A stretch of DNA of 61,616 nucleotides, filler included, from Nemertoderma westbladi (Eukaryota > Animalia > Xenacoelomorpha), in the NCBI GenBank assembly GCA_032718475.1. It is 3 parts of 3 records of this genome, joined end to end, with 100 filler letters (N's around TTAATTAATTAA, not from the genome) between each part and the next. Parts side by side here need not be neighbours in the genome. Positions count along the whole stretch, not along the records: positions 23,273 to 42,500 come from JAUCBJ010005765.1; 2 more parts are not named here. One strand, 5' to 3'. The position numbers were made by a program, and so were the translations under genes. How positions within the stretch are numbered: position 1 is the stretch's first letter; each line of letters starts with the position of its first letter. Positions 9,001 to 55,101 of the stretch are shown here, one piece after another. The notes under the pieces are model-generated. The model was not told the origin of the DNA and did not search any database. It worked only from the letters and a program-made list of their open reading frames with translations.

Positions 9001-11161
9001 TTCGCAATCTCGCTAACTAAATCCAACTGTCCACGTCCCTGTTTGGTTAGTCGTCCAGTCATTCCCTTCCGCGCGTCATCCGCCGGTAGGAAATATTAAC
9101 GGGATCTTCTTCTCGATGGTTCGGAGTTTGTCTAGTCTCCTGTTCTCTCCTTGGTGGTCGATGTTGTCTAGGTCGTTCTACTTCCACACTGGTCCGTGAT
9201 CTATCCGACGATGGAGCTTCGAGTCGCTCTTCTATCTGAGCTAGTTGATCCGTGGTCGTATTATTTTGGCGAGTCTGTTAGTGCTAATCGTCTCAGTCGG
9301 TTGTAACACAGGTTTCTGGACAGGTGTTTCTCGTGGAGGATTGTCGATGTACTGCTTCATAGATCTCTCCTCTCGTTTGTAATCATCCGCCGCTCCAGTA
9401 CTGAATATTTCTCTCTCCGTTGACTCCGAGTCACTGGATGAGTTGCTGTCGTCCGGATAAGGTGGTTGACGGGTATGCGTCTGGCGTATTATTCTCGTCA
9501 GTCGTGTCTGTTTTCGTTTGACGTCCTCGGTTCTTCGTCGTTCGGTAGGCTCGCAAGCCTTCCACGAAGTCATAGGTCTCGTTAAACAGTGTGTTAAAGG
9601 TCGAATAAACATATCAGGTTTTGTAGTCGGTCTGTAAATGACTGGGTTCGCGCAGCACGTTACAGGTTTAACTGCTAACGGCTTACTTACCTGCTTAACT
9701 GTCATAAATACAGGTTCCTCTCTTCCTACAAGTAGACTACGACTTACTGTAGGTGGACTATTTATTTTACCTTCTAAAATTGGTGACGATGTCGCTCTAG
9801 GTTGCGGTATTTCTGTCACAACAAACCTGTCACCTAGCTTTGCGCGTACAGGTAATATTTCCTTCGGTTTCGTAATTAAAACCGGTTTTATCGGAGTTGT
9901 AGGTTTGAGCATAGGAATCACTTGGGGAAAATGTTTACAGTAATCCTCGACGAACTCCTCTCCTCGAGTTATTGCTCCCACATTTCCTTTCTCGATTTGC
10001 CTTTGAATCCCGCGATATCGAGTCTCCATGCGGTCTAGGGCAGACAAATCATGTCTAGCTCGAGACCTTATAGATCTGTCTCTCGCGTCGAGTTCGAGGT
10101 CTTCTTGTGCGTTCGCTGTGGCATGCGCGTTAGATGCTGCTTTCTTCCATGCTAATTCAGCTGCATTTACTGCTGCCTGTCGTGCTATCTTGTCAGCTGC
10201 CGCCTGTCGTGTTAACTCGTCTGCTGCTGCCGCCGCAGCCGCTTCTTGCGCTAAGTCCTCCTCCAGTCTCCGCATCTCCGATGCTTCGAACTCAGCTTGA
10301 GCCTGGAGTTTCGCAAATTTCGCTAAGTCTTCTCGTCGCTGTCTTTCTCCTTCTGCTGCAATCTGCGCCAATTGTCATTGCGTTTCTTCCTCGGCGACCT
10401 GTTGCCGGCGTGCGACTTCCTGTTGTTGCTGAGTAATTGCAGACGCTGTCCTACTAACGTCGCCAATGTCGCTCCGCACACTAACGAACAATCTTTCCAG
10501 TGGTGGAATTTGGTAGGCTCGCGAGACTTCCGTAGTAAGAACTTCCGTCGTCCCTCGCGGTTCAACTTCCGGTTCTTCGATCGGTACGCCGTTTCTACAA
10601 AGAAAATTGGTGAGCGTTTCTAACCTCCCGTCCAGGCCGTATAGTTCTTCTTCCTCTTCGGGTTGCAACAATGCATCCGAAACTGACTCACCTAGCAGTT
10701 GGTCGAACTGCTCCTGTTGAGCCATTCGTATTACGGACTTAAACTGGATGAGGCTTTCCCTTGCACTTACCAACTTATCTATTATCTTTACTTGAGTAAA
10801 GTTGTTACCACGCAACTCTGCAAGTTCGTGTAAACCTTTAAGTTTATCTACGGAAGCATGTATCCTACTTTCTATCCTTACCTGTAAGGTGTAGAACTCG
10901 TATCTCAACATCGGGGCGGTTAACTCGCGTAAAAAGCGAAAACCTTCTCTGAAGTTTCGTGTTATCTGGGCCATGTGTCCCCCTATACTTCTAATAACAT
11001 TTTCTTGGCTTCCCGCCAAGCTTACCATGTCTGGTTCCCACGATCTGGTCTGCAGGACGGTAAGGAAATCTTCGATTCTGCCGTCGCCACGCGTTGCGGC
11101 TTCCGGTATTTCGTTCGGGGTACCGGCGACGCACGCGGTGTGTGACATCGGTGGAATCTCG
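6002..11161. repeat. Tandem duplication of a ~2579-bp gag segment (6002-8580 and 8581-11158)
   Basis: Near-identical ORF pairs offset by 2578-2579 bp; 3-bp microhomology TCG at the junction. Confidence 0.97.
8581..11148 (-). pseudogene. gag: BEL gag 5' region (coiled coil, DUF1759-like), interrupted
   Basis: ORFs of 257 aa and 376 aa separated by a single TGA; downstream EKFNYLLQVLSGEPKRL motif typical of BEL Gag. Confidence 0.75.
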
Positions 11162-20253: not shown

Positions 20254-22395
20254 TACTACTACTAGTATTGGCATGCTGCATTGCAGCTGCATTTTTAAGA
20301 ATGCTGTGCCGGCTTGTCGACAAAATTGCGCCGCCACAACTCTCTATCACCCATGACATGTCAAGGTGAATGATTTTCCGAATACATGATCCCAGGTAAA
20401 AGAAGTCGTCCACATGCTCAAGCATACCATCTTTTGAGCTTATGCTCATCCGATCAGAGACTTGCTGAGAACTTTCAAAGTTAACTGTCAAAATTTTGGT
20501 CTTTCTGGAGTTAATAAAAAGACCGACACTAGAAACAGCATGTTCTAATGAGCTGAGGAGCCGTTGGGCTCCCTCTAGTGATTCTGAGAGTACTCCTAAG
20601 TCATCAGCAAAGTCTAGATCAGCTAGGTACTTGGCAGGATTTCCTCGACTTCTGGAGCCAGTAGGTGGAGTTATCATCACCCCATCATCATTATGATGAT
20701 CTAAGGACATGCGTAGAACATAGTCAACCACAATTATGAACAAGAATGGTGCAAGTGTGTCTCCCTGGAGGACGCCCCATAACACTTCAAATGGTTCCGT
20801 GTCACCGTCAACAGTAGACACAAATGTTGTCGAACCATTGTATACTGATCTAGCTGCAATAATTTCATCAGGAATCCCATATAATGAAAGTATGCTGAAC
20901 ATACGTGAGCGGGAGACTGAATCAAAGGCCTTGAAGAAATCAACAAAGATAACAGCCAGATGCCTGTCTTTCTTTTTTGATAACTCTTCAATTATCCTTC
21001 TAAGTGCCAAAATGGGTTCCGTGGTCCCACGACCTTTACGGAACCCATTCTGATTTCCATGGAGCAGTCTCTCAATGGGATCCCTGATGCGATTTAATAG
21101 AATTCTATTGTATAGCTTTGCAGCAATCAAGATCAATGAGATACCCCGAAAAGAACCATAGAGTGTTAGGTTGCCCTTCTTGGGAACTGGCACCAACTTA
21201 TTTGTTTTCATTTCTTGTGGGACTCTTGTTGTTCAGTACATGTCTACTATGATGGGATAGATGAACTTTAAACACTCAGGTATTTTAAAGACCTCAGGGG
21301 GAACACCATCTACTCCACTTGCACGATTGGTCTTAATGCTCTTTGCAGCAGCCTTCACTTCTGCAAAGGAGATATCGCCAATGGGAATATCTGGGAGTAC
21401 AGACTCAGATACTTTTACTTCTATAAAGTTATCAGGCAATACCCTGTCATTATTTAGGAGCTTTTCAAAGTGGGCCTTCCAACCATTGACGCGATCGGCT
21501 GGTGATTCAGCCTTAACCTTGGTGGTTGGTTGGCTGTTCCGCCCAGTAAGCAAGTTGATCGATTTCCATGCCTGGGATGATTGCCTGCTGTCGTCGGCAT
21601 CATTGATGGCATCAACCTGTTGGTTTATTAGCTCCTGTAGATTAACAGAGTACTGCCTGTTCTGGGACCTAGATGCAGCCTTAACTGCATTCTTGGCCGC
21701 TGTAGTCTGTTTGAGTCGGGACTCTTTCTGCGCCTTATATAGGTCATTTAGCACTTCTGGATTTTGTTGTCAGTCCAGGGGGCCCTTTTTCCTGTTTCGA
21801 GGGTATACAGGAACTGTTTCTGCAGCTGCTAACTTAACTGCTTCTGTGAAGGCAGTATAGCCCTCACAGTGATCTGCCGCCTCAGAGGCAAGAACCTCAT
21901 ACCTGTTGCTCAGCTGTAGTGTGAAGCTGGATCTCACATTTGGCTGTTGCAACAGAGAGGACCAGTCATGCCGCGGCAAGGCAGATTTCGTTGTTCTGCT
22001 AGCACGCAGACTAAGTCTTACCTTGGCTACAATAAGGCGGTGATCACTGGAGAAGGGTCGAAGTGTAAATGCATTACAGTCTTGTATAGAGCTCCTGTAC
22101 TTCCTACGAAACAGAATATGGTCTATCTGGGAGTTGTGACCACTGCTCCACTATGAGTCCATAGCTTTCCAGTTCGCTTCTTGAACTGGGTTCCAGCCGA
22201 AAACAACCCATTTCCAGAGATAAAATCCTGAAGTTGGACGGAATTTCGGTTGACACTATTGCTATAGACCCAGGGCGATGTAGGTTATTGATGCAGACTT
22301 GCATTAAAGTCTCCCAGGAATGTTAAGAATGCATGCTGATCCACTGATGTAGAAATTTTCCACCTCCTCTACCGGGGCAACACTAGTTGGAGATA
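20254..22395 (-). mobile_element. RTE-clade LINE, family B, degenerate
   Basis: RT motifs QNGFRKGR, FVDFFKAFDSV, GVLQGDTLAPFLF, DFADD, YLGS; (TAG)n tail at ~20254-20265. Confidence 0.9.
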
Positions 22396-22399
22396 GCCA

Positions 22400-23172
22400 G
22401 TTGGTCCACTACTTGGTTCAGCCACTAGAGGCCAGTGAAATGACTGGACACAATCGGCCTCACAGGTGTCAGTTATCTCCTGACCGGCTGCCTGTCTCAC
22501 CCCCTACTGGAGAGAGAGCGGCAAACAATTCTTTGAGTCCCTTTCCTGATGACCTTTCTGGCCCTAACCAGGGAGGCCAGATTGTGAGGGGGAGAGGGAT
22601 TCTGGAGTTGGAGGCTACTCTCATGTTTCACCCCGACAAACAAAGCCATTGGTGAATCTGAGGCAAGTCACTAGACTAGCCTCAGTAAACACCCTAACAC
22701 TTGGGTCCCCAATGTGACAAGGTGAGCTGACTGCCTTGGCAGATAAGCTTTCTCTTAGTGCAGTGGGTGTTCAAGAGCACCGAATGCAGACTGGACAGAC
22801 TGATGAGGTTCTGATTAAGGACATGGTGGGCGGTTGGCGACTCGCCCTTGCTTCAGCAGATGATAGTGGCAATGGTGGAATTGGTCTATTGATGAATCCA
22901 ACTGCACATGCAGCATTGGACAAAATAGACCAAATCTCTAACCGCATCATCCGTTGCCACTTCTCATGTTCTGGAAGACTGGCTAAGAAGTTTCCTAAGG
23001 TGGTTCTGATTGTGTGCTACTCTCCAACTAGTGTTGCCCCTGTAGAGGAGGTGGAAAATTTCTACCAGAATCTGGAGTGGATCAGCATGCATTCTTAACA
23101 TTCCTGGGAGACTTTAATGCAAGTCTGCATCAATCACCTACATCGCCCTGAGTCTATAGCAATAGTGTTAAC
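22400..23172 (+). mobile_element. 5' (APE) part of a second RTE family B copy, cut by the gap
   Basis: VGVQEHR, GGIGLLM, VCYSPTS; 23020-23172 is a diverged inverted match to 22250-22395. Confidence 0.8.
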
Positions 23173-23272
23173 NNNNNNNNNNNNNNNNNNNNNNNNNNNN
23201 NNNNNNNNNNNNNNNNTTAATTAATTAANNNNNNNNNNNNNNNNNNNNNNNNNNNNNNNNNNNNNNNNNNNN
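23173..23272. other. Artificial contig spacer
   Basis: 44 N + TTAATTAATTAA (stops in all six frames) + 44 N. Confidence 0.97.
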
Positions 23273-23644
23273 GGGACGCGCGATGAATAAATTGTACTAC
23301 AGTAGGTACAGTAGATAAAATATACAATACAATAGGAACCGTAGTACAGTACAATACAATATACAATACATTTGTATTATTTTTGCCATACAATAGGTAA
23401 AGGTAGAATTAAATAAAAAGACACAATCGAAACCCAAAACATAAATTACCCTCACACAAAAATAAAGTGGCCCCAGTTTGACTAATCCCTTTGAATCCAT
23501 AGCTTCGTTATTACATCAATTCATCCAAGAAATTAGAATAATCATCTACTCTTGCAATAGTTTGTATTCTTTTGCGTTATACTTTATGAAGCAGTCCACG
23601 CGCATATTAACTCAAAGACAAACCCCTACCCAAACACCATGTGA

Positions 23645-23947
23645 TCAATAATCCCACACCTCTTCTCCCCACGCCATTGAACATTCTCCCTTCTTCTCTT
23701 CTTTCTCTTCTTTTTTCTCTTCTTTTTTCTGTTCTTTTAATATATGAAAAATTGAGTTCCTGGACCTATATTCGCAAAACCGCAAATGGTGATCCTTTTC
23801 AGCTTCTCTAAAGCTGTGTGCGGGTTGAAAAGGACACTGAACCATTTTTTGATTCGAAAAGTTCTTACGACATTTTCTTAAATGCGTAACATATTTTTCT
23901 GAATGAATTCTGTGTGTGGCATCATAAGGACATATGAAATATTCCAT
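23645..23947 (-). CDS. GTSF1: GTSF1/Asterix-like tandem CHHC zinc-finger protein, 100 aa (left-arm copy)
   Basis: CPYDATH-x9-HLRKC-RKN...CPFQPAH-x9-HLRFC: two C-x5-H-x9-H-x3-C fingers, K/E-rich linker, C-terminal AWGEEVWDY. Confidence 0.88.
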   Translation of the reverse strand: MEYFICPYDATHRIHSEKYVTHLRKCRKNFSNQKMVQCPFQPAHSFREAEKDHHLRFCEYRSRNSIFHILKEQKKEEKKEEKEEKKGECSMAWGEEVWDY

Positions 23948-24661
23948 AGTAACAAAAGACAAAAAACAAAATTTATTGAGATATACTTTTTAAAAAACTT
24001 TTAAAAACCTCACTTAATATTTTTAGAGATAATGATCTAACTTTACATGGTTTTATTTATATAGAAAGGTCCACCTTAACATTTCAAACAGAACCATAGT
24101 TTTTGGTATGGCATGCGTGAAGGATTAAGCATCCCATGGAACCCCTTGTTGAGTTATACTCTACAATGAAATATAAAGACGCAATCGAGGCCCAAAACAT
24201 AAATTACCCTCACACAAAAATAAAGTGGCCCCAGTTTGGCCCCGAGTCATCCCTCAATAATCTGCGGCTCGTTAGGCTCTTATTAACTGTAGCATGACTA
24301 ACCCAAACATCAATGCGTGAATGGGGCCTGCGTGAATGGGACCTGCCATAGAGTTTAAATTATTCAAACCTATAGCTTCGTTATTACATCAATTCATCCA
24401 AGAAATTAGAATAAACATCTGCTCTTGCAATAGTTTGCATTCTTTCATATTGTACTTTATGAAGCGGTTTACGCATGCATTAGCTCAACAACAAAGCCCT
24501 ACCCAAAACACCACATGTCAAGTCCATGTGAGGGTTGAACCCATGACATGCGGGAGATGTGAATTCAAAGCAACCACTACACCAAGGTGGAACAGCAACG
24601 TTTGAATTTGTTCGTTAACGTTCGAATTTGTAAGACTCTGATTTAAGACCTGAGGCACTCC

Positions 24662-25286
24662 CCACAACCACAGCCACAGCCACAGCCACAAGCCACAGCC
24701 ACAACCACAGCCACAGCCACAGCCACAACCACAGCCACAGCCACAACCACAGCCACAGCCACAACCACAGCCACAGCCACAACCACAGCCACAGCCACAA
24801 CCACAGCCACAACCACAGCCACAGCCACAGCCACAGCCACAGCCACAGCCACAACCACAGCCACAGCCACAGCCACAGCCACAACCACAGCCACAGCCAC
24901 AGCCACAGCCACAACCACAGCCACAGCCACAGACCACAGCCACAGCCACAACCACAGCCACAGCCACAACCACAACCACAGCCCACCACAGCCACAACCA
25001 CAGCCACAACCACAGCCACAGCCACACCACAGCCACAGCCACAACCACAGCCACAACCACAGCCACAACCACAGCCACAGCCACAGCCACAACCACAGCC
25101 ACAGCCACAACCACAGCCACAGCCACAGCCACAGCCACAGCCACAACCACAGCCACAGCCACAGCCACAACCACAGCCACAGCCACAACCACAGCCACAG
25201 CCACAGCCACAGCCACAACCACAGCCACAGCCACAACCACAGCCACAGCCACAGCCACAGCCACAACCACAGCCACAACCACAGCC
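24662..25286. repeat. (CCACAG/CCACAA)n hexamer array, left arm
   Basis: About 625 bp, two interspersed hexamer variants. Confidence 0.97.
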
Positions 25287-25389
25287 TCACCTTCACCCAC
25301 TTTATTGTTAAATACGCCTGAGAAAAATTCAAGAAACATCTGGTTTACAATAGATTATTCTTTTTTCACAACTCCATTCTAGCCTCCCT

Positions 25390-25398
25390 CTATAAAAG
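25390..25398 (+). promoter_or_regulatory. TATA box upstream of the central ORF (mirror copy at ~26593-26601, minus strand)
   Basis: CTATAAAAG about 150 bp upstream of ATG 25538. Confidence 0.55.
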
Positions 25399-25537
25399 CC
25401 CCCATTCACCGCATTCTCATTCATTCTCTAATTTTTATTTTTAAAAGTTTTATTTATTTTCATAAAAGTTTTATTTATTTAAAATTTTGTAAAATCATTC
25501 AGCGAAAATTCATAATATCAATTGACATTGCTATATA

Positions 25538-26293
25538 ATGCCTAGCTATGAAAGATGTTTGGTTTGTAATAAAGAAATGAGACGAGACAGTATATCCCGT
25601 CATATGAGTATACATAGAAAGGAAGGTGTAATGGAACCATTACCAAAGAAATTAAAAAATAATGATGATATTTTTAGTGAAGAAGAAAACAAAAAGAGAG
25701 TTGAGAGTGATTTTCTAGAGATTAAACAAATGATGAAACATAAATTCGAGAAAATCATGAATATTTTGAAGAATATACAGAAACAGCCACATAGTGAAAA
25801 GGACGATGAGAGTGAGGAAGAGAATAAATCAGAGGAAAGTGAGAATGATGAAACGGAGAGTGAGATAGAGAAAGAAGAAAATGAGAGTGGTGGTGAAGAA
25901 AATGAGAGCGAGAAAGAAGTCGAGGAACATGAAAGTGGTGAGGATAATGACTCAGATAATGAGGAGATATTAAGACATGTATTAGGAAATAAAAATAAAT
26001 TGCAGAAGATAATTAGACAATTGAATGAAATGCAGAAACATTCGCATAAGGAGAGTGATAATGATGGAAATGAGAGTGATGGGGATGAATCGGAGGAGAG
26101 TAGCGATGACAGTGAGGAAGAATCAGAGGAGAGTAGCGATGACAGTGAGGAAGCATCAGAGGAGAATGACAATGAAAATGGACAGAAAATCAGAGTAGGG
26201 AATGGAAAAGTTATATCTCCAGCAACTGTTGTATATCCTAGGATTATGAACAGTAACAGTCGTACAGTTAATGTGAGACAGTGCAGAAGATAA
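25538..26293 (+). CDS. 251-aa protein: N-terminal C2H2 finger, NLS-like motif, long acidic Ser/Glu/Asp tracts
   Basis: CLVCNKEMRRDSISRHMSIH; PLPKKLK; ATG start, upstream TATA, AT-rich 3' region with ATTAAA. Confidence 0.7.
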   Translation: MPSYERCLVCNKEMRRDSISRHMSIHRKEGVMEPLPKKLKNNDDIFSEEENKKRVESDFLEIKQMMKHKFEKIMNILKNIQKQPHSEKDDESEEENKSEESENDETESEIEKEENESGGEENESEKEVEEHESGEDNDSDNEEILRHVLGNKNKLQKIIRQLNEMQKHSHKESDNDGNESDGDESEESSDDSEEESEESSDDSEEASEENDNENGQKIRVGNGKVISPATVVYPRIMNSNSRTVNVRQCRR

Positions 26294-26704
26294 TTAGACA
26301 ATTGAATGAAATGTTACAATGTGTTATAACTTATGTGTTACAATGTGTTATATCTTAAATGTTACTCTGCTATATGTATATGTATATGTGTTATGTTATA
26401 AATATATATTTCAATGTTGCTATATTAAAAATATGAAAATAGTCGACTATATTTCATTTTTCTTTTTCAACTTTGGATAAATAATATAGGGGTTAAACAA
26501 AGAACATCAAAACAGTTAAACAGTTACATTTAACATTTAGACAGTAAACAGTAACAGTAAACATTTACATGACCAGTTGCGGTGAATGGGGGCTTTTATA
26601 GAGGGAGGCTAGAATGGAGTTGTGAAAAAAGAATAATCTATTGTAAACCAGATGTTTCTTGAATTTTTCTCAGGCGTATTTAACAATAAAGTGGGTGAAG
26701 GTGA

Positions 26705-27222
26705 GGCTGTGGTTGTGGCTGTGGTTGTGGCTGTGGTTGTGGCTGTGGCTGTGGTTGTGGTTGTGGCTGTGGCTGTGGCTGTGGTTGTGGCTGTGGTTGT
26801 GGCTGTGGCTGTGGCTGTGGCTGTGGTTGTGGCTGTGGTTGTGGCTGTGGTTGTGGCTGTGGCTGTGGTTGTGGCTGTGGCTGTGGCTGTGGTTGTGGCT
26901 GTGGTTGTGGCTGTGGTTGTGGCTGTGGTTGTGGCTGTGGCTGTGGCTGTGGCTGTGGTTGTGGCTGTGGCTGTGGTTGTGGCTGTGGCTGTGGCTGTGG
27001 TTGTGGCTGTGGCTGTGGCTGTGGCTGTGGTTGTGGCTGTGGTTGTGGCTGTGGCTGTGGCTGTGGCTGTGGTTGTGGCTGTGGTTGTGGCTGTGGCTGT
27101 GGTTGTGGCTGTGGTTGTGGCTGTGGCTGTGGCTGTGGCTGTGGCTGTGGTTGTGGCTGTGGCTGTGGCTGTGGCTGTGGTTGTGGCTGTGGCTGTGGTT
27201 GTGGATGTGGCTGTGGTTGTGG
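26705..27222. repeat. (GGCTGT/GGTTGT)n hexamer array, right arm
   Basis: About 518 bp; reverse complement of the left array but with different length and variant order. Confidence 0.97.
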
Positions 27223-27934
27223 GGAGTGCCTCAGGTCTTAAATCAGAGTCTTACAAATTCGAACGTTAACGAACAAATTCAAACGTTGCTGTTCCACCTT
27301 GGTGTAGTGGTTGCTTTGAATTCACATCTCCCGCATGTCATGGGTTCAACCCTCACATGGACTTGACATGTGGTGTTTTGGGTAGGGCTTTGTTGTTGAG
27401 CTAATGCATGCGTAAACCGCTTCATAAAGTACAATATGAAAGAATGCAAACTATTGCAAGAGCAGATGTTTATTCTAATTTCTTGGATGAATTGATGTAA
27501 TAACGAAGCTATAGGTTTGAATAATTTAAACTCTATGGCAGGTCCCATTCACGCAGGCCCCATTCACGCATTGATGTTTGGGTTAGTCATGCTACAGTTA
27601 ATAAGAGCCTAACGACCGCAGATTATTGAGGGATGACTCGGGGCCAAACTGGGGCCACTTTATTTTTGTGTGAGGGTAATTTATGTTTTGGGCCTCGATT
27701 GCGTCTTTATATTTCATTGTAGAGTATAACTCAACAAGGGGTTCCATGGGATGCTTAATCCTTCACGCATGCCATACCAAAAACTATGGTTCTGTTTGAA
27801 ATGTTAAGGTGGACCTTTCTATATAAATAAAACCATGTAAAGTTAGATCATTATCTCTAAAAATATTAAGTGAGGTTTTTAAAAGTTTTTTAAAAAGTAT
27901 ATCTCAATAAATTTTGTTTTTGTCTTTTGTTACT

Positions 27935-28237
27935 ATGGAATATTTCATATGTCCTTATGATGCCACACACAGAATTCATTCAGAAAAATATGTTATGCAT
28001 TTAAGAAAATGTCGTAAGAACTTTTCGAATCAAAAAATGGTTCAGTGTCCTTTTCAACCCGCACACAGCTTTAGAGAAGCTGAAAAGGATCACCATTTGC
28101 GGTTTTGCGAATATAGGTCCAGGAACTCAATTTTTCATATATTAAAAGAACAGAAAAAAGAAGAGAAAAAAGAAGAGAAAGAAGAGAAGAAGGGAGAATG
28201 TTCAATGGCGTGGGGAGAAGAGGTGTGGGATTATTGA
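27935..28237 (+). CDS. GTSF1: GTSF1/Asterix-like tandem CHHC zinc-finger protein, 100 aa (right-arm copy)
   Basis: Same as the left copy except one T/M difference; TATATAAA at ~27820; intronless. Confidence 0.88.
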   Translation: MEYFICPYDATHRIHSEKYVMHLRKCRKNFSNQKMVQCPFQPAHSFREAEKDHHLRFCEYRSRNSIFHILKEQKKEEKKEEKEEKKGECSMAWGEEVWDY

Positions 28238-28808
28238 TCACATGGTGTTTGGGTAGGGGTTTGTCTTTGAGTTAATATGCGCGTGGACTGCTTCATAAAG
28301 TATAACGCAAAAGAATACAAACTATTGCAAGAGTAGATGATTATTCTAATTTCTTGGATGAATTGATGTAATAACGAAGCTATGGATTCAAAGGGATTAG
28401 TCAAACTGGGGCCACTTTATTTTTGTGTGAGGGTAATTTATGTTTTGGGTTTCGATTGTGTCTTTTTATTTAATTCTACCTTTACCTATTGTATGGCAAA
28501 AATAATACAAATGTATTGTATATTGTATTGTATATTTCGTTTGTTATAGTACAATTTATTCATCTCGCGTCCCTATCTGATTGATTTGTATCAAATTAAA
28601 TTGCCTTTGGCAACATTATTTGATACAAATCGATTGATTAAACAATTAATTAATTGTTTAATCGACCAATTAATTAATTGGTTAATTAATTAATGACCTA
28701 CTTAACACCCAAGGTGTGAAGTAGGTCCAATTGTCGCCAAGGATGGCAAACCATTACTACTATAAACATTGTACAGGGGAATCCTTCCGCAGTTGAATGT
28801 GGACGCCG

Positions 28809-29051
28809 TGTTAAAATATCCATAATGGCAGAATGGTCGCAGTTGCATTTCTCATATTATTGCTATATAATATATATAATAAGTACAAAAAGTTTACTTG
28901 AGACCGGTACACAGATGGTCCATAAAACAGCAGTATACTACTGCATACATCAATACATCACCCAACACCGAAATACTAAGTATCAATAAAAAGTAAGGGA
29001 ACTTAGATCATACTATCAGTTTGAACTCGTAATAGTACAATATTTACGACA
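28809..29051 (-). repeat. 3' LTR of BEL-2
   Basis: Matches 33644-33886; one mismatch seen (TATCAATAAAA vs TATCAAGAAAA). Confidence 0.95.
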
Positions 29052-29119
29052 CTCCCACGAAAGGAAATACTACCGGACCGGTGATGACTTTGTCTTGATT
29101 TAAATTTAATTTATTTCTA

Positions 29120-31580
29120 CTAACACAATCCTTCCGCTATTAATTTCTTAGCTCTCTCCGCAGCTTTTCTTTTAGGTCGTTGACATTCACGGTCATTAGT
29201 GGTATGTTTTGAAATGCGGGAATCAGAAGAGTTAGTATTCTTATTCATCACAGAGTTTGATTCAATACATCTCTCGTTTAATTCCAATGGAAACAACATG
29301 TTAATTGGTCGAGTTACTCGACTTACTTTTACCTTCCTTTTATTCTCGATAATGAATCTCACAACAGCGCTTCTAACTTCTTCATCATTACTGGTGTTCA
29401 AAGAATCAATAACTCCCAGTTTCCAACGTCCTCTTGGCCCATCATCCTTTATCAAAACAATATCTCCAATTTGTGGTTTATCTACCAACTGTCCCTTTAT
29501 ACCCTTATGGTCAGTTTGTGTTCGCTCTTGGAGACTATGTAAATATTCGTCATAGAAAGCTTTCCAGGCAGAATCAATATGTTCCTTTCCATGAGTCCAT
29601 GCACTAATCAAACTTTCCTTAAGTGTCGGAATGGCTGGTTGATAATTTGAATCTCTTAATACATCTTCATAGGATCCACATTCTAAAAATGCACCTAAGA
29701 AATCATTTGGACATAAAGTATACCCTGAGTCTATATCATTTCCTACATATAGCAGAGGTCGACTATTTATTATAGGTTCAATTTCTAATAACAGGCATTC
29801 AAGTTGCCTTATAGTCAAGCACGTCTTTCGTAGTAATTTCTTTAAGATCTTTTTTATCAAGCCAATAAGCCTTTCGTAAAAGCCACCCATCCAAGGGGAC
29901 ATTTCAGGGATAAATCGCCACTTTATGCCGTCACTTAACACAGCTTCCAATACAGATCGTGCCAGTTTAAATTGAGAAGCATTATCAGATATGAACATTG
30001 ATATCTTCCCTGATCTCGCTTTAAATCGCCTAAAACAAAATAAAAACTCTTCAGTTCCTTGGTCTCGAACTAATTCCAATCTAACACCTCGAGTAGCCAT
30101 GCATGTAAACAGACAAATCCAAATCTTTTGGACTTCGTTTGCATCGTTTCTTCCGAATAGTGGTCCCATATAATCCAATCCAGAATATTCAAAGGGAAGT
30201 GATCTCATAATACGCTCCTTTGGCAATGGAGCTATCGGAGGAAGTTTATATGATTGCCCATCTACCTTTTTACACATTATACATTTCAATAATATTGATC
30301 GAACAACAGATCTTCCATGTATTATCCAAAAATGTCTTCTAACTAAGGCCAAAGTATGTGATACACCAACATGGAAGTTTAATTTATGTACTCTTTCTAC
30401 CAATAATTTTGTAAACCATGATCTTTTCGGGAGTAATATCGGGAAACCATTTAATGGTTCAGCATAAGTGAATCGTCCCCTGCATCGAATAATATCATCA
30501 TCATCAATAAAACAACCTAATGCTCGCTTCAACTCGTTCGTCTCATTATGGTTAATTGCATGTATCATGTCGCCGAAATGTTGAATTTGTATAAGATGTA
30601 TTAGTTTTGTTTCTGCTAATTTAATTTCTTCAGAAACAATACAGTTCATAACAAGATCATTATTTATCTGCAAACGTTTAGATTTTGGAGTAATGAACCG
30701 TAAAATGTAAACCATTACCCGAATCGCATTTGACAGATTTGAGTATTTGTTTCCAAATTCTTCTAAGAATTTCCATTCAGAGTTCTCTCTATATTCTTGT
30801 TTTTTCTGAGGATGGGCAAGTAATGACATACTGTAAAACTCCTTTGCCGGTTTTGACGCCTCATCACATAGTTTAATATACTCGGGTGTTATTGGAGGAA
30901 GTTTTGTTGACTCCCACTCATTCGGGTCACATGAAAGCCACTCTGGCCCCTTCCACCAAATCTTATTGTCAATCAATTCGTCAATGGAACAACCTCGACT
31001 TGCAATATCTGAAGGGTTGTCCTTTGAAATAACATATCTGAATTCGTAACCAGTATTTCGAATATCATGTAGTCGTCTATCTACAAATGCCCCTATTTGC
31101 TTCTTAGATTTCAGCCAATAAAGTACACATAGTGAGTCAGAAAATATAATAGTATCAACAATCTGGATATTTCGAAGTTGATTTTTGCAGAAAGTTACAG
31201 CATTTGATGTTATCCACATGCCAAGAAGTTCAAGTCTTGGAATTGATGGTTGCTGTTTTGTTGATTGGTGTTTCTTTGGTTCTATCAGTCGACTTTTAGC
31301 AAACACCAACAGTGGTTCATAACATAATTTGTTACATTCATTTGCATATTCTTTCACCAGAAATACACATGTTGCATAAGCCTGGGCAGAAGCATCTCCA
31401 AATCCATATAATCGGTAGTTATTGGCAACAGCAGCATAGAAACTTCTATTTAGTTTTACCGCATTGATATTAACTATACTATCTAGTAATTTATTCCACT
31501 CTACTGACTGTGCAATCGAAAATCGTGCGTCCCAATCAAGTTTTTCTTTCCATAACCTTTGTAGAAACAGTTTTGTTTTT
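29120..31580 (-). pseudogene. pol: BEL RNase H plus integrase (745-aa ORF with a frameshifted upstream part)
   Basis: GFGDASAQAY, SIPRLELLG, FSDSLCVLYW, NPSDIASRG, GLDYMGP, FTCMATRGV, SDNASQF, GGFYERL. Confidence 0.93.
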
Positions 31581-31662
31581 GCTGTTAATCAACTGTTATT
31601 TCCGTAAGGTTAGCAGTAAAATTTTTTCACATTTTTATGCATTGTTACAACCGTTATTATAT

Positions 31663-31947
31663 TTACCTTGTTTGTATTTGTATTAATCTATTAATCTTAT
31701 CGGAAAATTCGATTTCACATCCAAATTTACGTAAACTTTTCTCATCAAAAACTTCATTTACTATTAAACATTGTGGTAGACTTAATGTAGAACATTCGGA
31801 ACAACTCCATTCAAACTCATCTGGTAGGTTATTGTACAAAGAATCGGGTAAAGAATTCGGATAATCGTCATTAACACATTTAACACACCAGAATTGTTTG
31901 CATAAATCGCAAATTATTGCCTTACTTTCGTTTGATATTTTTTTCAC
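31663..31947 (-). pseudogene. PHD-finger-like fragment, possibly the BEL Gag N-terminus
   Basis: IICDLCKQFWCVKCV...EWSCSEC. Confidence 0.6.
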
Positions 31948-32350
31948 ACACTATAAATCTATCCACGAACGATCCACAAACTGTTTCTGTCCGGAATGCG
32001 GAAAATCATTCAACCAACAATGTTCGGTAACTCGACACGTTAAAACAGTCCACGAGAATATCCGCATATATAGCTGCCCGATATGTGAGCGCCTGTTTAA
32101 GGAGCGGAGTCATATGAAGCAGCACGTTAAGTCTTTGCATCAGGGGGTGCGTTATTCTTGCCCTTTGTGCAATAAAGGCTTGACGACACGGAGTCACGTG
32201 ACGCAACACATACGGGAGGTCCACCAGGGTATTAGGCACGAGTGTAGTTGGTGCAATAGGACGTTTAATTCCTCAGCGAAACTCAAACAACACAATCGGG
32301 AAGTCCATGAGTATGATACTAAAGAAGATGTTAAGTTGTCTATGGTTTAG
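31946..32350 (+). CDS. C2H2 zinc-finger array fragment (4 complete fingers), 5'-truncated
   Basis: CPECGKSF..HVKTVH, CPIC..HVKSLH, CPLC..HIREVH, CSWC..HNREVH, then a stop. Confidence 0.85.
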   Translation, partial: THYKSIHERSTNCFCPECGKSFNQQCSVTRHVKTVHENIRIYSCPICERLFKERSHMKQHVKSLHQGVRYSCPLCNKGLTTRSHVTQHIREVHQGIRHECSWCNRTFNSSAKLKQHNREVHEYDTKEDVKLSMV

Positions 32351-32912
32351 ATTTTATGTTAGAAACAGATAAAACTAAATATAACGAAATAGGTACCAAA
32401 AAAATTATTAATATATATAATAGGTATGTATTCTGTACCGTTATGCCTACTGTTTAGTTTATTTAATAATTATTTGACCTCAAATTGTATTAACAGGGTA
32501 GTCAGTCTCAGTAGTACTATGTTTATTGCTGGAATAATAGTCACATAATACAGAAATTAAGGGTTTTACTAAAGTCCATATTCGTATACTGTAAAGGTAC
32601 GATAGCTATCGTATTTGTCTATCGTATTTGCGTCCCTGACCTTGGGTATGATTGGTTCATTCATTTAACCTAATGATTGGAATGCGGGCTTCACGGGTAC
32701 TCACTATTCTGGGGTACATCTTATTGGATTTACCGCTGCAGTGGCAGTGGTCAGTCGGTCTCGAGTAAATTTTCTTGAATGTTGAATATATCACATATAA
32801 ACATAGGCGAGAACATTTATGAGGTATTTGACTATTTTACAAAATATATACTTACTGGTTAGGTTACATTCATTTTTGCATATTCAATTTATTTATAATT
32901 TAAAACGATATG

Positions 32913-32968
32913 TACTACTACTACTACTACTAGGTCGAGCGAACTCGGACAGAGGAAATGAGATCCTT
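32913..32968 (-). mobile_element. Very short 3'-end insertion of RTE family A
   Basis: Matches 19595-19643 including the (TAG)n tail; TSD TAAAACGATAT at 32901-32911 and 32972-32982. Confidence 0.85.
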
Positions 32969-33224
32969 ATCTAAAACGATATATACTAATATTTAAAACA
33001 AGCATTAGCTGAGTAAAAGCAAGTAAAAATCGATATGACCTACCCTACTGTAAATCATAGTTGTAGCTTTGATGGAAATTACAAAATATGGTTACAAATA
33101 TAGTAATATAAGGATTATAACATATAATAATAAATATTATATATATATATATTATATTATAATATAACGATTGTAATAAATATAATAATATATAATGTAT
33201 TATTTTAATATATAAGATTTTGCA

Positions 33225-33485
33225 AGAGATCTACCCGACAACTATGAATTATGCTTAGGTCAATTAAAAGCTGTACATAAACGACTATTGAATGATAGAA
33301 AATTATTAGCTGATTATGATAATATTATAAAAGATCAAATATCGAAAGGGATTGTTGAAGAAGTTGAAATGAAAAAGGAAAATTCTACAAATTTGAAACA
33401 TTATATCCCACATCATGCTGTGGTTAAACCAGATAAGGAAACCACAAAGGTACGAATTGTTTACAATGCAAGTGCTAAAACAAAT
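33225..33485 (+). pseudogene. pol: BEL RT N-terminal fragment, inverted relative to its element
   Basis: LPDNYELCLGQL...YDNIIKDQISKGIVE...YIPHHAVVKPDKETTKVRIVYNASAK. Confidence 0.88.
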
Positions 33486-33643
33486 ACGTATGTAGTAGAT
33501 ACGCTGACCACAGCCCTAGCCACCGAACGATCTATCAGGCAGAAGCAAGAAGATACGCTGACCACTGCCCTAGCCACCGAACGATCTATCAGGCAGAAGC
33601 AAGAAGATACGCTGACCACTGCCCTAACCACGCTCTGCTACCA

Positions 33644-33886
33644 TGTTAAAATATCCATAATGGCAGAATGGTCGCAGTTGCATTTCTCATATTATTGCTA
33701 TATAATATATATAATAAGTACAAAAAGTTTACTTGAGACCGGTACACAGATGGTCCATAAAACAGCAGTATACTACTGCATACATCAATACATCACCCAA
33801 CACCGAAATACTAAGTATCAAGAAAAAGTAAGGGAACTTAGATCATACTATCAGTTTGAACTCGTAATAGTACAATATTTACGACA
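33644..33886 (-). repeat. 5' LTR of BEL-2
   Basis: Adjacent to the PBS and to 54-bp leader repeats (33497-33627). Confidence 0.95.
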
Positions 33887-34225
33887 CGCCGGCGTCGATG
33901 TGAGCAACAAAAGTGCAGACTGAAAACTGCACTAGTTTGCTCCAGTTACTCTAAATACTCTTACAAGAACCACTCCAAGAAAACAAGAGTTAAATCAATC
34001 ACCTGCGAGTCTTGTGGTCCGCAGCAGTAATTACAGTATGAATATGTAATAATATATATGTATATTATATTATTATTATATAATAATGAAAATATATTAT
34101 AATAATATAATATAATAATAATAAATAATATATTATATATTATTTATAATTTATTTTTTATTATATATTATTATATATATACTATATATTATATATACTA
34201 TATATACACTATATATATAATTATA

Positions 34226-36944: not shown

Positions 36945-37822
36945 TATGGGGCGCCGTTTGGGCCAAAAATAAAAAAAACATATTATATTAAAAAGTTATA
37001 ATGGTATGTTTTTTATCTTGCCGTTTGGGCCAAAAGTTGTAATGGTATGTTTTTTTATCTTGCCGTTTGGGCCAAAAATAGCTGAGAGGGAAATTTGAAT
37101 TATCACTTTCTATATAGGCCTACTGTATTTAGCAATTGCAATTATCATCATACCTGTGAGCCTGTCTGCCTATACATGATTGTGGATTGTATTTACACAC
37201 GGTGTACCGTATCGCTGTAGGAGTGGACTTTAGGCTTACCTCCCGCTGTATGGCTGTATGGGCCTTGGCCTCCTACCAGTACTCATATACTGTCACTGGG
37301 TAATGCTGTAATGCGTTAGGCTGTTAGGTACAAATCAGTATACTTTAGGCCCTGTAGCATTACACCTTGTGCTTGTGATAGGCCTACATCTTGTGGTCCA
37401 CAATACTGCAATACTGAGGCATTAATGTCAGAATGTCATTTGTACCTAACAGCCTAACGCTACATTACAGCATTACCCAGTGACAGTATATGAGTACCGG
37501 TAGGCCAAGGCCCATACAGCGGGAGGTAAGCCTAAAGTCCACTCCTACAGCGATACGGTACCGTGCTGCCGTGTGTAAATACAATCCACAATCATGTATA
37601 GGCAGACAGGCTCACAGGTATGATGATAATTGCAATTGCTATAAATACAATATATAGAAAGTGATAATTCAAATTTCCCTCTCAGCTATTTTTGGCCCAA
37701 ACGGCAAGATAAAAAAACATACCATTACAACTTTTGGCCCAAACGGCAAGATAAAAAAAACATACCATTATAACTTTTTAATATAATATGTTTTTTTTTT
37801 TTGGCCCAAACGGCGCCCCATA
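36945..37822. mobile_element. Foldback/MITE with ~390-bp inverted arms
   Basis: TATGGGGCGCCGTTTGGGCC ... GGCCCAAACGGCGCCCCATA; arms 36945-37336 and 37438-37822; three GCCGTTTGGGCCAAAA subterminal repeats per arm. Confidence 0.9.
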
Positions 37823-42500: not shown

Positions 42501-42600
42501 NNNNNNNNNNNNNNNNNNNNNNNNNNNNNNNNNNNNNNNNNNNNTTAATTAATTAANNNNNNNNNNNNNNNNNNNNNNNNNNNNNNNNNNNNNNNNNNNN
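42501..42600. other. Artificial contig spacer
   Basis: Same 44 N + TTAATTAATTAA + 44 N structure. Confidence 0.97.
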
Positions 42601-52753: not shown

Positions 52754-55101
52754 ATGGCTGCATTCCGGCACTCAAATAGATCCATACAAAGGCGCACCCC
52801 CTTCCTTATTACAGACTATGAGGCAGTCTGTTCATTTATAGAAGAACTCCTCAACCAACCAGTAATCGAACTTGACAGTCTCGAACAGGCCACAGTACAC
52901 GCCAAAGATATAAAATCAGCTAAAGCAAATATGGAGGAGACCTTCTGCACCTTGATATCCTGACTCGAGAAGGAGGGAAGAACTGAAGAAAGAGACAATT
53001 ATCTGCTTGACTACCAAAGATGCAGCAGACTATGCAGAGAAATGTTAAAACACCCGGAAAGCCACTGCAAAGCATTAGGGGCCAATAACTCAATCTCATT
53101 GATATCATTTAAGTCCTCGTCTTCTCGAGCCCAAAGCCTACTGCAACAGAAGAAAGCATCCTTGAAGAGCAAAGAAATTACAGCAGCACTAGATGAGAAA
53201 CATACAAAACTAGAGATGCAACAAAGCCAGCTAGAAGCTGATGCAGACATTGGCCAATTACAAAACTGCCATCCTTGAGCAAGACCTTCAGATCGAAGAG
53301 GACAAAGAGAGAGGGATTGAAAGTGAATACAAATCCATCCCCATTCCAGAGTTGAAAAAAATACTTCCTTTCAATGAACTAGAAACTGGGAAACCTACCC
53401 TTAAAACCTCCAACCTCTCACCCAGAGCTCCAGTGTTCTACCCTCATATGGAAGAGAACCAGGAAAGTCATAATAATCATAAGTACGAGCCTTAAAAGCA
53501 CTTGGAAAACCTTACAACACCTTCTGGAGATCGACTGGAGGATGATCAGCTGATGAATGGCACCTACCACTATGAGCCCGAAAGGGACTCGGACCGTGGT
53601 GATGACCCGATACCCATCATGGAACCAGTCACGTCAACACCCCAACAATCATGGCAAAATAATACATGCTGATCCGAAACTCGAGTGGAGCCCTCATATG
53701 CGAGCGGCATCCCAGGACATTTCATCACTCCATGTAAACCTACATCAAATGACGTGAGTATAATCACAGCGCTAGAAAATCAACTCTCTAAGCCTAAAAT
53801 GGAGATCTGTGGTTTCAACAGAGAAAATACAGACTTTTATTAGTTATAAAAAGTATATCTTAGCACAGATAGGATCGACCAAAAGAACAGATGCCCAAAA
53901 ACTCTTTTACTTATCGCAATACCTTGGTGATAAACCCAGGAGGTTGATCCACTGCTTTGAAGGCGGCGCGGATGTTGCGTATAGAGATGCGTGGGAAGCT
54001 TTAAATTAATGATATGGGAACACAGGAACCATCATTGATAAAACTCTGGAGAAACTTTTCCAAGATGCAAGTTCACTAGGTGATCCTCAAAATATACAGG
54101 AGTTCTCGGATTCTTTGAAAGAGGCATATTATAGTTTGAAACCTCTAAAGAAGGAGGATCAGGTAAACAATATCCTCAACCTCCGATAGATCGCCAGAAA
54201 GTTTCCAGAATGGCTACAAAGTAAATGGGCATATAAATGCATCGATTTATGTTGACGTCATACGGATAGTGATATGACATATCTTGTATGTCATGTCATG
54301 TTATATGACATGTCCACGTGTATGCCATGTGTATACTTCCCGGACAGAGACATGACCGATCTGGAACTACATATGTTTTCCGATGCATCCTTGGAAGCAA
54401 ATGGAGCACCACTTTATTTGGTACAGCGAAAGGGGGCCCATAAGCCCAGGCTTGCGTTTAGTAAAGCGAGGTCCACGCCAACAGATTCAGCATCAGTGCC
54501 GAAACGAAACTAATGGCTGCGAGATTAGGAGTAAGGTCGACAGCATACTTGGTGGACACTATACCAAATATAGTAGAGACGCACTACTGGACAGATTCCA
54601 TTGTAGTGTTGGGATGGCTGCTTAATGAGAAGACGTGTAATCCCATATTTGTGGCGAATAGGGTGGACGAGATAAGAGCAATGACCGATTTGGAGAAGTG
54701 GCGCTACCGCCCAACTGACGACAATCCAGCGGATCTGCTATCGAGGGGCGTTGCACGACACGCTTTCTCGAGAAAGCAGGAGTTGTGGCATCATGGCCCA
54801 CACTTCCTTAACGATAGGTCGAGCTGGCCACCAATGAGGAAGGTAGACCCAAGTACAGAGGAGGTGATGGTGGAAGAGGAGGGAGAGGAATCAGAGGGGG
54901 ATGAAATATTCAGCCAATTAGTGAGAGGTCAAGGAAGCACCACTGCAATTAAAGCCAAGAGGGTCGTGCGATAACCCAATGGATAGGTTGCTCAGTTACA
55001 GCTCCAGCTGGTATATGACTAAGAAGCTAGTAGCATATCTGAGGGCCTATGGGAATTCCTCAGGGGAGTTGAGAAGGATACCAAAACAAGACCCACTATC
55101 A
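52754..55101 (+). mobile_element. BEL/Pao remnant (BEL-3): gag plus RNase H; protease and RT absent
   Basis: QKLFYLSQYLGDKPRRLI..AYRDAWEAL; LHMFSDAS, AFSKARSTP, YWTDSIVVLGWL, FVANRV, NPADLLSRG. Confidence 0.85.

What the first reader, a model, noticed from the sequence alone, without database searches (positions are those of the whole stretch)
23273..28761. Mobile element carrying two intact GTSF1/Asterix-like genes: candidate transposon-encoded anti-piRNA system
Seen: each inverted arm has an intact, intronless 100-aa ORF (23645-23947 minus, 27935-28237 plus) with its own TATA box. The protein has two C-x5-H-x9-H-x3-C fingers starting CPYD and CPF, the KCRKN motif and a Trp/acidic tail (AWGEEVWDY). 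Established: this is the architecture of GTSF1/Asterix/Cue110, a PIWI cofactor needed for piRNA-guided slicing and transposon silencing, which binds PIWI through C-terminal aromatic residues. From memory of mouse GTSF1, the RNA-binding R26 position is His here while K36 is kept; this needs an alignment. Inference: a selfish element captured a host silencing cofactor and may use it as a decoy or dominant-negative, or as a fold-back source of small RNA against host GTSF. I know of no such described cargo but cannot search the literature.
Basis: partly seen in the sequence, partly recalled or inferred. Interest (0 to 1): 0.93.

Follow-up and report, generated by a model that had tools for sequence, protein, structure and literature searches.

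The report
Transposon carrying a piRNA cofactor gene
A 5.5-kb repeat with mirror-image arms, likely a stripped-down Maverick jumping element, carries in each arm an intact compact gene for a GTSF1-type protein, the kind animals use to help silence jumping genes, and it would most likely use this protein to blunt that silencing, although expression and function are untested.

Summary
Observation confirmed. Two intact, intronless 100-codon ORFs lie in 2.1-kb inverted arms, each with a TATA box. The protein is GTSF1-type by Pfam, solved-structure and fold searches. It is a complete minimal GTSF1: two CHHC fingers, 3 of 4 RNA-ridge basic residues (the commonest state among homologues) and the acidic-Trp motif, with no tail. 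The His at the R26 column is real but is no dominant-negative signature. The repeat is not an assembly artefact: the arms differ, 1.16 kb of unique DNA separates them, and public contigs of two studies hold at least five diverged ORF versions and far more element ends. The right end is a hairpin array ending in ACTACT, the commonest Maverick end motif. But the core Maverick genes are absent and the left end lies in a gap, so it is only likely a non-autonomous Maverick derivative. Selection on the ORF is suggested, not shown. Best guess (0.3): an element-encoded competitor of host GTSF1 on PIWI. Rivals: neutral passenger (0.25), working activator (0.2). No such cargo turned up in six literature searches.

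The parts
23273..25413 (.). left inverted arm; its outer end is cut by a scaffold gap (23173-23272)
26578..28573 (.). right inverted arm, as far as it is shared with the left arm
28574..28761 (+). right terminal segment: array of stacked hairpins and palindromes, ending in ACTACT (28756-28761), the likely Maverick-type end
   Evidence: DNA fold -47.7 kcal/mol, z -10.4, 0 of 200 shuffles as good; perfect 28-nt and 18-nt palindromes; end motif in PMC8097293. Not checked against reads.
27935..28237 (+). GTSF1-like ORF, 100 aa: CHHC finger 1 (C6 H12 H22 C26), finger 2 (C38 H44 H54 C58), charged linker, W93 and the EEVWDY end
23645..23947 (-). second copy of the GTSF1-like ORF (Thr21)
27722..27934 (+). 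upstream region of the GTSF1-like cassette with TATAAATA at 27822-27829 (mirror 24054-24061 on -)
   Evidence: motif only
27371..27721 (+). inner copy of the subterminal segment; direct repeat on one side of the cassette (mirror 24162-24513)
   Evidence: summed contig depth 12-26 times that of the ORF
28243..28478 (+). outer copy of the same segment, starting just behind the stop codon, 85% alike and shorter by a central deletion (mirror 23404-23639)
   Evidence: 216 matches, 39 mismatches, 5 gap runs
27291..27360 (+). tRNA-like (A/B-box-like) piece of a very high-copy, likely SINE-type repeat (mirror 24524-24593)
   Evidence: peak summed depth 376,060 in X1 with many loose ends on both sides; no tRNA call, no stable fold
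24662..25286 (.). 6-bp tandem array (CACAGC/CACAAC) in the left arm
26705..27222 (.). the same array in the right arm, shorter
25391..25398 (+). inward-facing TATAAAAG, 147 nt upstream of the central ORF (mirror 26593-26600 on -, followed by no ORF)
   Evidence: motif only
25538..26293 (+). central ORF, 251 aa: N-terminal C2H2-like finger, long helix, acidic tract; likely cut short by a rearrangement (26282-26313 is an exact copy of 26001-26032)
   Evidence: no relative found; weak Atlas leads only, at most 0.87
25414..26577 (.). unique centre between the arms (1164 nt)

Best explanation
This is a real 5.5-kb inverted-repeat element, likely a non-autonomous Maverick/Polinton derivative, whose two arms each hold an intact minimal GTSF1 gene that is likely made as protein and would dock on PIWI-piRNA-target complexes in competition with the host's own GTSF1, likely weakening silencing of the element family. 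Shown: the anatomy, the GTSF1-type fold and motifs, several diverged ORF versions in two studies, and the lack of any mobility gene. Inferred: (1) the element moves with enzymes supplied in trans by a full-length relative (0.85 that it is mobile; about 0.6 that it is Maverick-derived); (2) an intronless GTSF1 copy entered the subterminal region between two direct repeats long ago and has been kept open by selection (about 0.65); (3) it binds PIWI through the acidic-Trp end and RNA through finger 1 (about 0.8 if made); (4) it hinders rather than helps, since it lacks the long tail that most homologues carry and has His at the R26 column and unusual residues in finger 2 (about 0.6 if it binds).
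For: GTSF1-type by Pfam, PDB sequence and fold (model pLDDT 86). All 8 zinc ligands and the usual CPYD and HLxKCRKN residues are kept although no hit among the best 150 of 441 is close (best E 4e-12; 28-57% over matched stretches). The acidic-Trp motif starts 36 residues behind finger 2, against a median of 38 in the 100 of 140 homologues that have it; such aromatic residues mediate PIWI binding, Kd 8 nM versus 500 nM in the mouse mutant (PMC9385479). The ORF stops 1 residue behind the motif; 93 of 100 homologues run on for more than 10 residues and 52 of 100 carry GRG/RGR there. Contigs of X1 and X2 (two studies) hold ORF pieces with 1/121, 6/107, 12/93, 15/137, 12/86 and 1/123, 8/162, 11/136, 23/160, 19/95 differences; none of the 13 ORF substitution rows shown makes a stop or changes a zinc ligand, and 0 of the 12 indels shown lie in the ORF. 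A 91%-alike contig bridges the subterminal repeat into the cassette's upstream region (X1 record 2), so diverged family members carry the cassette edge too. In a neutral simulation a 100-codon ORF stays open with 8 ligands in 2-9% of runs at 7% divergence and 0.15-0.7% at 14%. The right end reads ACTACT, the commonest Maverick end (PMC8097293). Precedent for the motive: Drosophila telomeric elements captured piRNA-pathway genes in 8 of 9 capture events (PMC13534243).
Against: Nothing marks the protein as crippled: 3 of 4 basic ridge residues is the commonest state (88 of 140), and a natural short form, silkmoth Gtsf1L, ends just behind W99-D100-D101 and works in piRNA biogenesis (PMC10711660); 7 of 100 homologues end as early. 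The excess of silent changes is not significant (5 of 13, P 0.06-0.21), and the lack of indels is marginal (P 0.04-0.06); only 40 of 96 substitution rows and 12 of 15 indel rows were shown. The diverged ORF pieces are 86-162 nt long and some may be host paralogues rather than element cargo; the simulation holds only if they diverged inside the element. Element ends are 12-26 times deeper than the ORF, so most family members seem to do without it. The host's own GTSF1 was not identified. Maverick identity rests on one 6-mer (chance about 0.1 in 200 nt, from 0.5 per kb in this window); the core genes are absent, the arms exceed the 46-1447 nt of vertebrate Mavericks, and the shared arm end reads TAGGG, which I recall as a hAT-type end.
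Confidence: 0.3

Rival explanations
1. Neutral passenger: a processed GTSF1 copy landed in the subterminal region of a mobile element and is carried along, open by luck or because it is young, with no role for the element.
For: Most ends of the family appear to lack the cassette (depth ratio 12-26). Silent-change excess not significant. The deepest ORF version is nearly identical to the window's (1 difference in about 120 nt), so that lineage is young.
Against: Versions 5-20% apart show no stop or indel among the rows listed. The ORF has its own TATA box and ends exactly behind the Trp motif and in front of element sequence. Capture of whole host genes by Pack-MULEs and Helitrons is called exceptionally rare (PMC6431247).
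Confidence: 0.25
2. Working activator: the element encodes a functional Gtsf1L-like cofactor that would raise PIWI slicing, to restrain itself or competing elements and viruses, or because the host has co-opted the copies.
For: All parts known to be needed are present: fingers, basic ridge in its commonest state, acidic-Trp motif at the usual distance. Short natural forms exist and paralogues are PIWI-specific (PMC10711660, PMC9385479).
Against: A pro-silencing gene is hard to keep in a selfish element. Single R26 mutation lowers RNA binding in mouse GTSF1 (10.1101/2020.08.11.246769). Finger 2 has residues rare in the family (Gln41 in 0 of 140, Pro42 in 3 of 140), though these two positions vary among copies.
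Confidence: 0.2
3. RNA-level counter-defence as in TART-nxf2: piRNAs or siRNAs from the captured sequence would knock down the host GTSF1 transcript; the protein does not matter.
For: Precedent in Drosophila telomeric elements (PMC7785250 abstract; PMC13534243). A transcript from flanking DNA through the whole element would fold back.
Against: Known captures are 140-235-nt fragments, and targeting was nearly absent at 79-82% identity; here a whole ORF is kept with a TATA box. Both ORF promoters point outwards and the inner ones cannot cover both copies. Identity to the host gene is unknown.
Confidence: 0.1
4. The finger pair serves another RNA task of the element or its parent virus (tRNA or duplex binding), unrelated to PIWI.
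For: Mouse GTSF1 binds tRNA through finger 1; nematode GTSF-1 switched from PIWI to an RNA-dependent RNA polymerase (PMC13650160); a tRNA-like piece lies in each arm.
Against: Nematode GTSF-1 lost the aromatic residues and the basic ridge; this protein keeps both. The tRNA-like piece looks like a decayed high-copy repeat.
Confidence: 0.08
5. Host paralogue family caught in a local inverted duplication, or an assembly artefact; no mobile element.
For: No target-site duplication or second insertion site was seen; hosts often have several GTSF paralogues (PMC9385479); the terminal segment holds the same 12-mer that marks this assembly's gaps (3 matches in the window, 0.02 expected), so that segment needs a check.
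Against: The arms differ from each other, a unique 1164-nt centre separates them, 1139 and 670 contigs of two studies lie on 911 nt of one arm, and the subterminal segment is far deeper than the ORF. The 12-mer sits inside perfect palindromes, which an artefact would not make.
Confidence: 0.07

Closest known systems
GTSF1/Asterix and the short Gtsf1L forms (mouse 6x46; GTSF1 chain of the SIWI complex 9nhb/9nhc; silkmoth Gtsf1L, PMC10711660)
   Same: Tandem CHHC fingers with an 11-residue linker, basic ridge on finger 1, acidic-Trp motif at the usual distance; about 100 aa like Gtsf1L.
   Different: Intronless, doubled in inverted arms of a repeat family; no tail behind the Trp motif; His at the R26 column; at most 49% identical to any hit over the finger core.
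Maverick/Polinton elements (PMC8097293; adintoviruses, PMC8502044) and their cargo genes
   Same: ACTACT right end, long terminal inverted repeats, intronless ORFs; Mavericks are known to carry cargo (PMC11512509).
   Different: 5.5 kb instead of 13-25 kb; none of the core genes; arms over 2.1 kb; 6-bp duplication not testable; no piRNA-pathway cargo in the passages read.
Drosophila telomeric elements that captured nxf2, piwi or aub fragments (PMC7785250, PMC13534243)
   Same: A mobile element holds sequence of a piRNA-pathway gene.
   Different: Those are 140-235-nt fragments in retroelements that act through antisense piRNAs; this is a whole ORF with a TATA box in a DNA element, and the gene is GTSF1 (0 mentions in PMC13534243).
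Anti-silencing proteins of plant DNA transposons (meeting report PMC11512509; the name VANC is recalled)
   Same: A transposon-encoded protein that counters host silencing is the function proposed here.
   Different: Those are sequence-specific DNA-binding proteins that remove methylation; this would be a borrowed host cofactor acting on PIWI in an animal.

Membership tests
GTSF1/Asterix family | two tandem N-terminal CHHC fingers (C-x5-H-x9-H-x3-C) | tested here: met
   Pfam zf-U11-48K twice; linker of 11 as in 124 of 140 homologues
GTSF1/Asterix family | closer to GTSF1 than to U11-48K or TRM13, with no methyltransferase domain | tested here: met
   PDB sequence E 1.7e-11 and 1.8e-8 for GTSF1 against 0.062 for U11-48K; fold search ranks both GTSF1 structures first; named hits are GTSF1 homologues
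GTSF1/Asterix family | basic RNA-binding ridge on finger 1 (mouse R26, R29, K36, K39) | tested here: inconclusive
   H, K, K, K here; 3 of 4 basic in 88 of 140 homologues, 4 of 4 in 32; RNA binding itself untested
GTSF1/Asterix family | acidic-aromatic PIWI-binding motif behind the fingers | tested here: met
   EEVWD 36 residues behind finger 2, family median 38; sequence only
GTSF1/Asterix family | binds PIWI and speeds up piRNA-guided slicing | not testable with these tools
   no PIWI sequence of this host was on hand
Maverick/Polinton | 5'-(AGT)2 ... (ACT)2-3' end motifs | tested here: inconclusive
   ACTACT at 28756-28761; left end lies in a gap; chance about 0.1
Maverick/Polinton | terminal inverted repeats | tested here: met
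   at least 2.0-2.1 kb, longer than the 46-1447 nt of vertebrate elements
Maverick/Polinton | 6-bp target-site duplication | tested here: inconclusive
   left flank hidden by the gap; the LINE piece left of the gap does not continue into the right flank
Maverick/Polinton | protein-primed PolB, integrase, ATPase, protease and capsid genes | tested here: not met
   ORFs of 90 aa or more inside the element are the two GTSF1-like ones, the central one and two repeat frames; no such Pfam hit in the four scanned. Not filed as a member; likely a non-autonomous derivative
hAT- or Mutator-type foldback element (non-autonomous) | short transposase-type end (TAGGG, recalled as hAT-like) with an 8-9-bp duplication | tested here: inconclusive
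   TAGGGACGCG ends at 28575 on the minus strand and the left contig starts 2 nt inside it; duplication hidden by the gap; no transposase in the element
TART-type capture of a piRNA-pathway gene fragment | short non-coding fragment of the host gene | tested here: not met
   whole 303-nt ORF, against 140-235-nt fragments
TART-type capture of a piRNA-pathway gene fragment | antisense piRNAs that target the host transcript | not testable with these tools
   no small-RNA data; host gene not identified

The most novel reading that the evidence does not exclude
A Maverick-type family in an animal encodes its own protein suppressor of the piRNA pathway: a captured, trimmed GTSF1, doubled in the terminal repeats, that occupies the cofactor site on target-engaged PIWI and blocks slicing or silencing-complex assembly. 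That would be a first transposon-encoded anti-PIWI protein built from the host's own cofactor.
Probability: 0.3. Interest if true: 0.92.

Novelty: new variant of a known kind. Interest (0 to 1): 0.72.

Why it matters
Whether animal transposons fight the piRNA pathway with proteins of their own is a long-standing question (my own knowledge); the captures I found in print act through RNA fragments. This element offers a small, purifiable candidate: a whole GTSF1-type gene inside the terminal repeats of a multi-copy DNA element. A slicer assay with and without host GTSF1 would decide between suppressor, activator and passenger. Even the activator outcome would be odd: a selfish element carrying a working part of the machinery that silences it.

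Tried and rejected
No whole genome is held, so copies, insertion sites and the host GTSF1 could not be looked up. No RNA holder listed; the one run guessed to be RNA (X5) lies only on the tRNA-like piece: no evidence on expression either way. X4 covers 14 of 30 bins and none of the ORF: no conclusion. No relative of the GTSF1-like protein in viral contigs (0 of 87 pattern matches) or metagenome contigs (0 of 593), none by word search (0 of 76); alignment-based scans could not be run for lack of a conserved stretch. The terminal 20-21-mer has no exact match in viral or metagenome contigs. No viral structure matches either protein at E 0.001; the weak Vesanto-virus rows (E 0.06-1.1) are zinc-finger likeness and were not taken as evidence. 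The central ORF has no relative (0 of 11; 0 of 10). A tree of 141 finger cores (140 of the 150 hits had a clean finger pair; 10 left out) was a quick tree with 63 columns and leaves the query unplaced: the donor lineage is unknown, although the best named core identities are molluscs (47-49%). Rfam: two matches far below their cut-offs, rejected as hairpin likeness. The tRNA-like piece as a Pol III decoy RNA: no tRNA call, folds worse than shuffles, rejected. The long Val/Ala frames over the tandem arrays have no Pfam hit (one scanned) and are taken as by-products of a 6-bp repeat. The bacterial promoter scan is not relevant. A complex with PIWI was not predicted: no PIWI of this host was available. 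Earlier notes of this scan hold no look-alike. De et al. 2025 and Kapitonov and Jurka 2006 are not held, so the GTSF1 contact residues in the PIWI complex structures could not be compared. No supplements were opened; supplements of Maverick surveys may list accessory genes that I did not see.
Full report
1. The observation. The window is repeat-rich DNA, likely of an animal (LINE and BEL/Pao pieces). Two intronless 100-codon ORFs lie at 23645-23947 (-) and 27935-28237 (+), one nucleotide apart. Both score zf-U11-48K twice (E 3.3e-10). The best solved relatives are mouse GTSF1 (E 1.7e-11) and the GTSF1 chain of a SIWI complex (E 1.8e-8); U11-48K scores 0.062. An AlphaFold2 model on a 104-sequence alignment has pLDDT 86 and finds the same two structures first. 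All 29 leading Atlas hits are zf-U11-48K clusters from eukaryotes. TATAAATA lies 113 nt upstream of each ATG.

2. Anatomy. Inverted arms span 23273-25413 and 26578-28573 around a unique 1164-nt centre. From outside in, each arm holds short subterminal repeats, an outer copy of a subterminal segment, the GTSF1-like ORF pointing outwards, its upstream region, an inner copy of the same segment (85% alike), a tRNA-like piece, a 6-bp tandem array and an inward-facing TATA box. The cassette is thus framed by a direct repeat, and its stop codon abuts the outer copy. The centre holds one 251-aa ORF with a C2H2-like finger and an acidic tract; an exact 32-nt copy at its 3' end suggests a rearrangement. 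It has no detectable relative. Right of the shared arm, 188 nt fold into stacked hairpins (z -10.4, 0 of 200 shuffles) and end in ACTACT. The left arm begins at a scaffold gap, so its end and any target-site duplication are unseen.

3. Artefact or family? A fold-back artefact would give identical arms without a unique centre (inference); these arms differ near their ends and in array length. Five public runs from four studies hold part of the right arm, two of them half of its words or more; X1 may be the window's own source. Laid on 27240-28150, X1 gave 1139 and X2 670 contigs. Over the first 72 codons each run holds at least five versions, from 1 difference in 121 nt to 19 in 95 nt. The version nearest the window is 8.3 (X1) and 5.9 (X2) times deeper than the shallowest listed version, more than the four copies this one locus could give in a diploid if the shallowest is one haplotype. 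The tool warns that depth is no copy number, so this is a hint. The subterminal segment is 12-26 times deeper than the ORF, so the cassette seems to ride in a minority of a larger family of ends. One 91%-alike contig bridges that segment into the cassette's upstream region, and two diverged ORF contigs share 17 nt of leader. The most diverged pieces could be host paralogues; that is not resolved.

4. What kind of element? (AGT)2//(ACT)2 is the commonest Maverick end, with 6-bp duplications and repeats of 46-1447 nt in vertebrates (PMC8097293, passages). The right end fits, but one such 6-mer turns up in 200 nt about one time in ten, and no polymerase, integrase, ATPase, protease or capsid ORF is present. 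I do not file it as a Maverick; I put a non-autonomous Maverick derivative at about 0.6. The shared arm ends at TAGGG, which I recall as hAT-like, so a foldback-type transposon gets about 0.25. The terminal array also holds the 12-mer used in this assembly's gaps, though inside perfect palindromes.

5. Is the protein a decoy? Mouse GTSF1 needs four basic residues on finger 1 and central Trp residues for PIWI binding (PMC9385479, passages; 10.1101/2020.08.11.246769, passages; PMC9539491, passages). Here the four columns read H, K, K, K. Among 140 of 150 hits with a clean finger pair, 34 have Arg and 5 His at the first column, and 88 have three basic residues of four; these hits were chosen for likeness to the query, which may bias the counts. 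So the His is no clear lesion. The acidic-Trp motif sits at the usual distance, and the protein ends one residue later; 7 of 100 homologues with the motif end as early, while 52 carry GRG/RGR further on. Silkmoth Gtsf1L also ends just behind its W99 and is functional (PMC10711660, passages). The sequence is therefore a complete minimal GTSF1. It could compete with the host protein or stand in for it; sequence cannot tell.

6. Selection. Of 96 substitution rows 40 were shown, 13 in the ORF: 5 silent, 8 not, no stop, no ligand changed; 0.18-0.25 silent is expected by chance (P 0.06-0.21). None of 12 indels shown (of 15) is in the ORF (P 0.04 by length, 0.06 within the cassette). A neutral ORF would rarely stay whole at 7-14% divergence (0.15-9%), but only short pieces were seen. 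Selection is suggested, not shown.

7. Mechanism. Most likely (0.3) the element family makes this protein and it docks on target-engaged PIWI, where GTSF1 and Maelstrom act as a gate (PMC13618286, PMC13269885, PMC13650160, passages), displacing the host cofactor and weakening silencing. Rivals are a neutral passenger (0.25), a working activator (0.2), antisense small RNA against host GTSF1 (0.1), another RNA task (0.08) and a host duplication or artefact (0.07). The RNA route is weak because both ORF promoters face outwards and known captures are short fragments that lose effect near 80% identity (PMC13534243, passages).

8. What is known. Capture of piRNA-pathway gene fragments is known (PMC7785250, abstract; PMC13534243). 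Maverick cargo and plant transposon anti-silencing proteins are known (PMC11512509, passages). Polintons rearranged a small-RNA gene in C. elegans (10.1101/2024.01.15.575659, abstract). Adintovirus accessory genes in the passages read include no such cofactor (PMC8502044; piRNA and zinc finger 0 mentions). A GTSF1 gene in a mobile element was not found: GTSF1 with Polinton gave 1 paper; GTSF with Maverick gave 4, three read in passages with unrelated mentions and PMC9406493 seen only in the listing; broader searches showed none among the rows listed (40 of 266; 11 of 14; 25 of 320; 4 of 4). Subscription journals and Repbase reports are not covered. No viral structure matches (0 at E 0.001). 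Two earlier notes of this scan describe tandem or short host GTSF1-like genes in other genomes; they are unchecked and only remind one that host paralogues are common.

9. Verdict. The feature is real and unusual: a whole GTSF1-type gene doubled in the terminal repeats of a multi-copy DNA element. The anti-piRNA role is a reasonable best guess without direct support. New variant of a known kind; interest 0.72, and 0.92 if the suppressor reading (0.3) holds.

Noticed in passing
window 28806-33890: BEL/Pao-type LTR element 45 nt right of the ACTACT end: LTR pair 28806-29055 / 33641-33890, 98.8% alike; integrase-region ORF 29120-31219 (-) with DUF5641 and Integrase_H2C2. Its integrase does not belong to the element studied.
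   Followed up: partly
window 27291-27360 and 24524-24593: tRNA-like piece of a very high-copy repeat inside both arms, at the same junction that the GTSF1-like stop codon occupies in the outer repeat copy.
   Followed up: partly
window 28682-28693, 23217-23228, 42545-42556: The 12-mer that this assembly puts in the middle of its 100-nt gaps also occurs once in real-looking sequence, in the terminal palindrome array.
   Followed up: partly
window 27996: The right-arm letter that gives Met21 is in no listed contig of X1 or X2; it may be an assembly error or a rare variant.
   Followed up: partly
window 23273-23349 versus 28533-28573: The outer ~80 nt of the two arms differ in their short-repeat pattern while the next 1.3 kb are 99.8% alike; unexplained.
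   Followed up: no
window 22249-22397 and 23016-23172: Two head-to-head copies (92%) of an RTE-like LINE endonuclease piece left of the gap.
   Followed up: partly
window 54952-58920: 30-bp tandem array of about 128 copies that reads as a 1313-aa open frame, likely a by-product of the repeat.
   Followed up: no
window 42713-46921 (-): 1402-aa ORF that looks like a CRE/NeSL-type non-LTR element (label recalled; no Pfam hit at 0.001) with a long Pro-rich repeat inside the frame.
   Followed up: partly
window 6002-11161 and 36945-37822: A 2.58-kb tandem duplication, 99.6% alike, in LTR-element sequence, and an 880-nt near-palindrome, 87% alike.
   Followed up: no
proteins P0027, P0028 (members P0161, P0162 on 49-kb contigs): Unnamed 105-126-aa GTSF1-like proteins that also end right behind an EEKW(E/D)F motif; their genomic setting is worth a look.
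   Followed up: no
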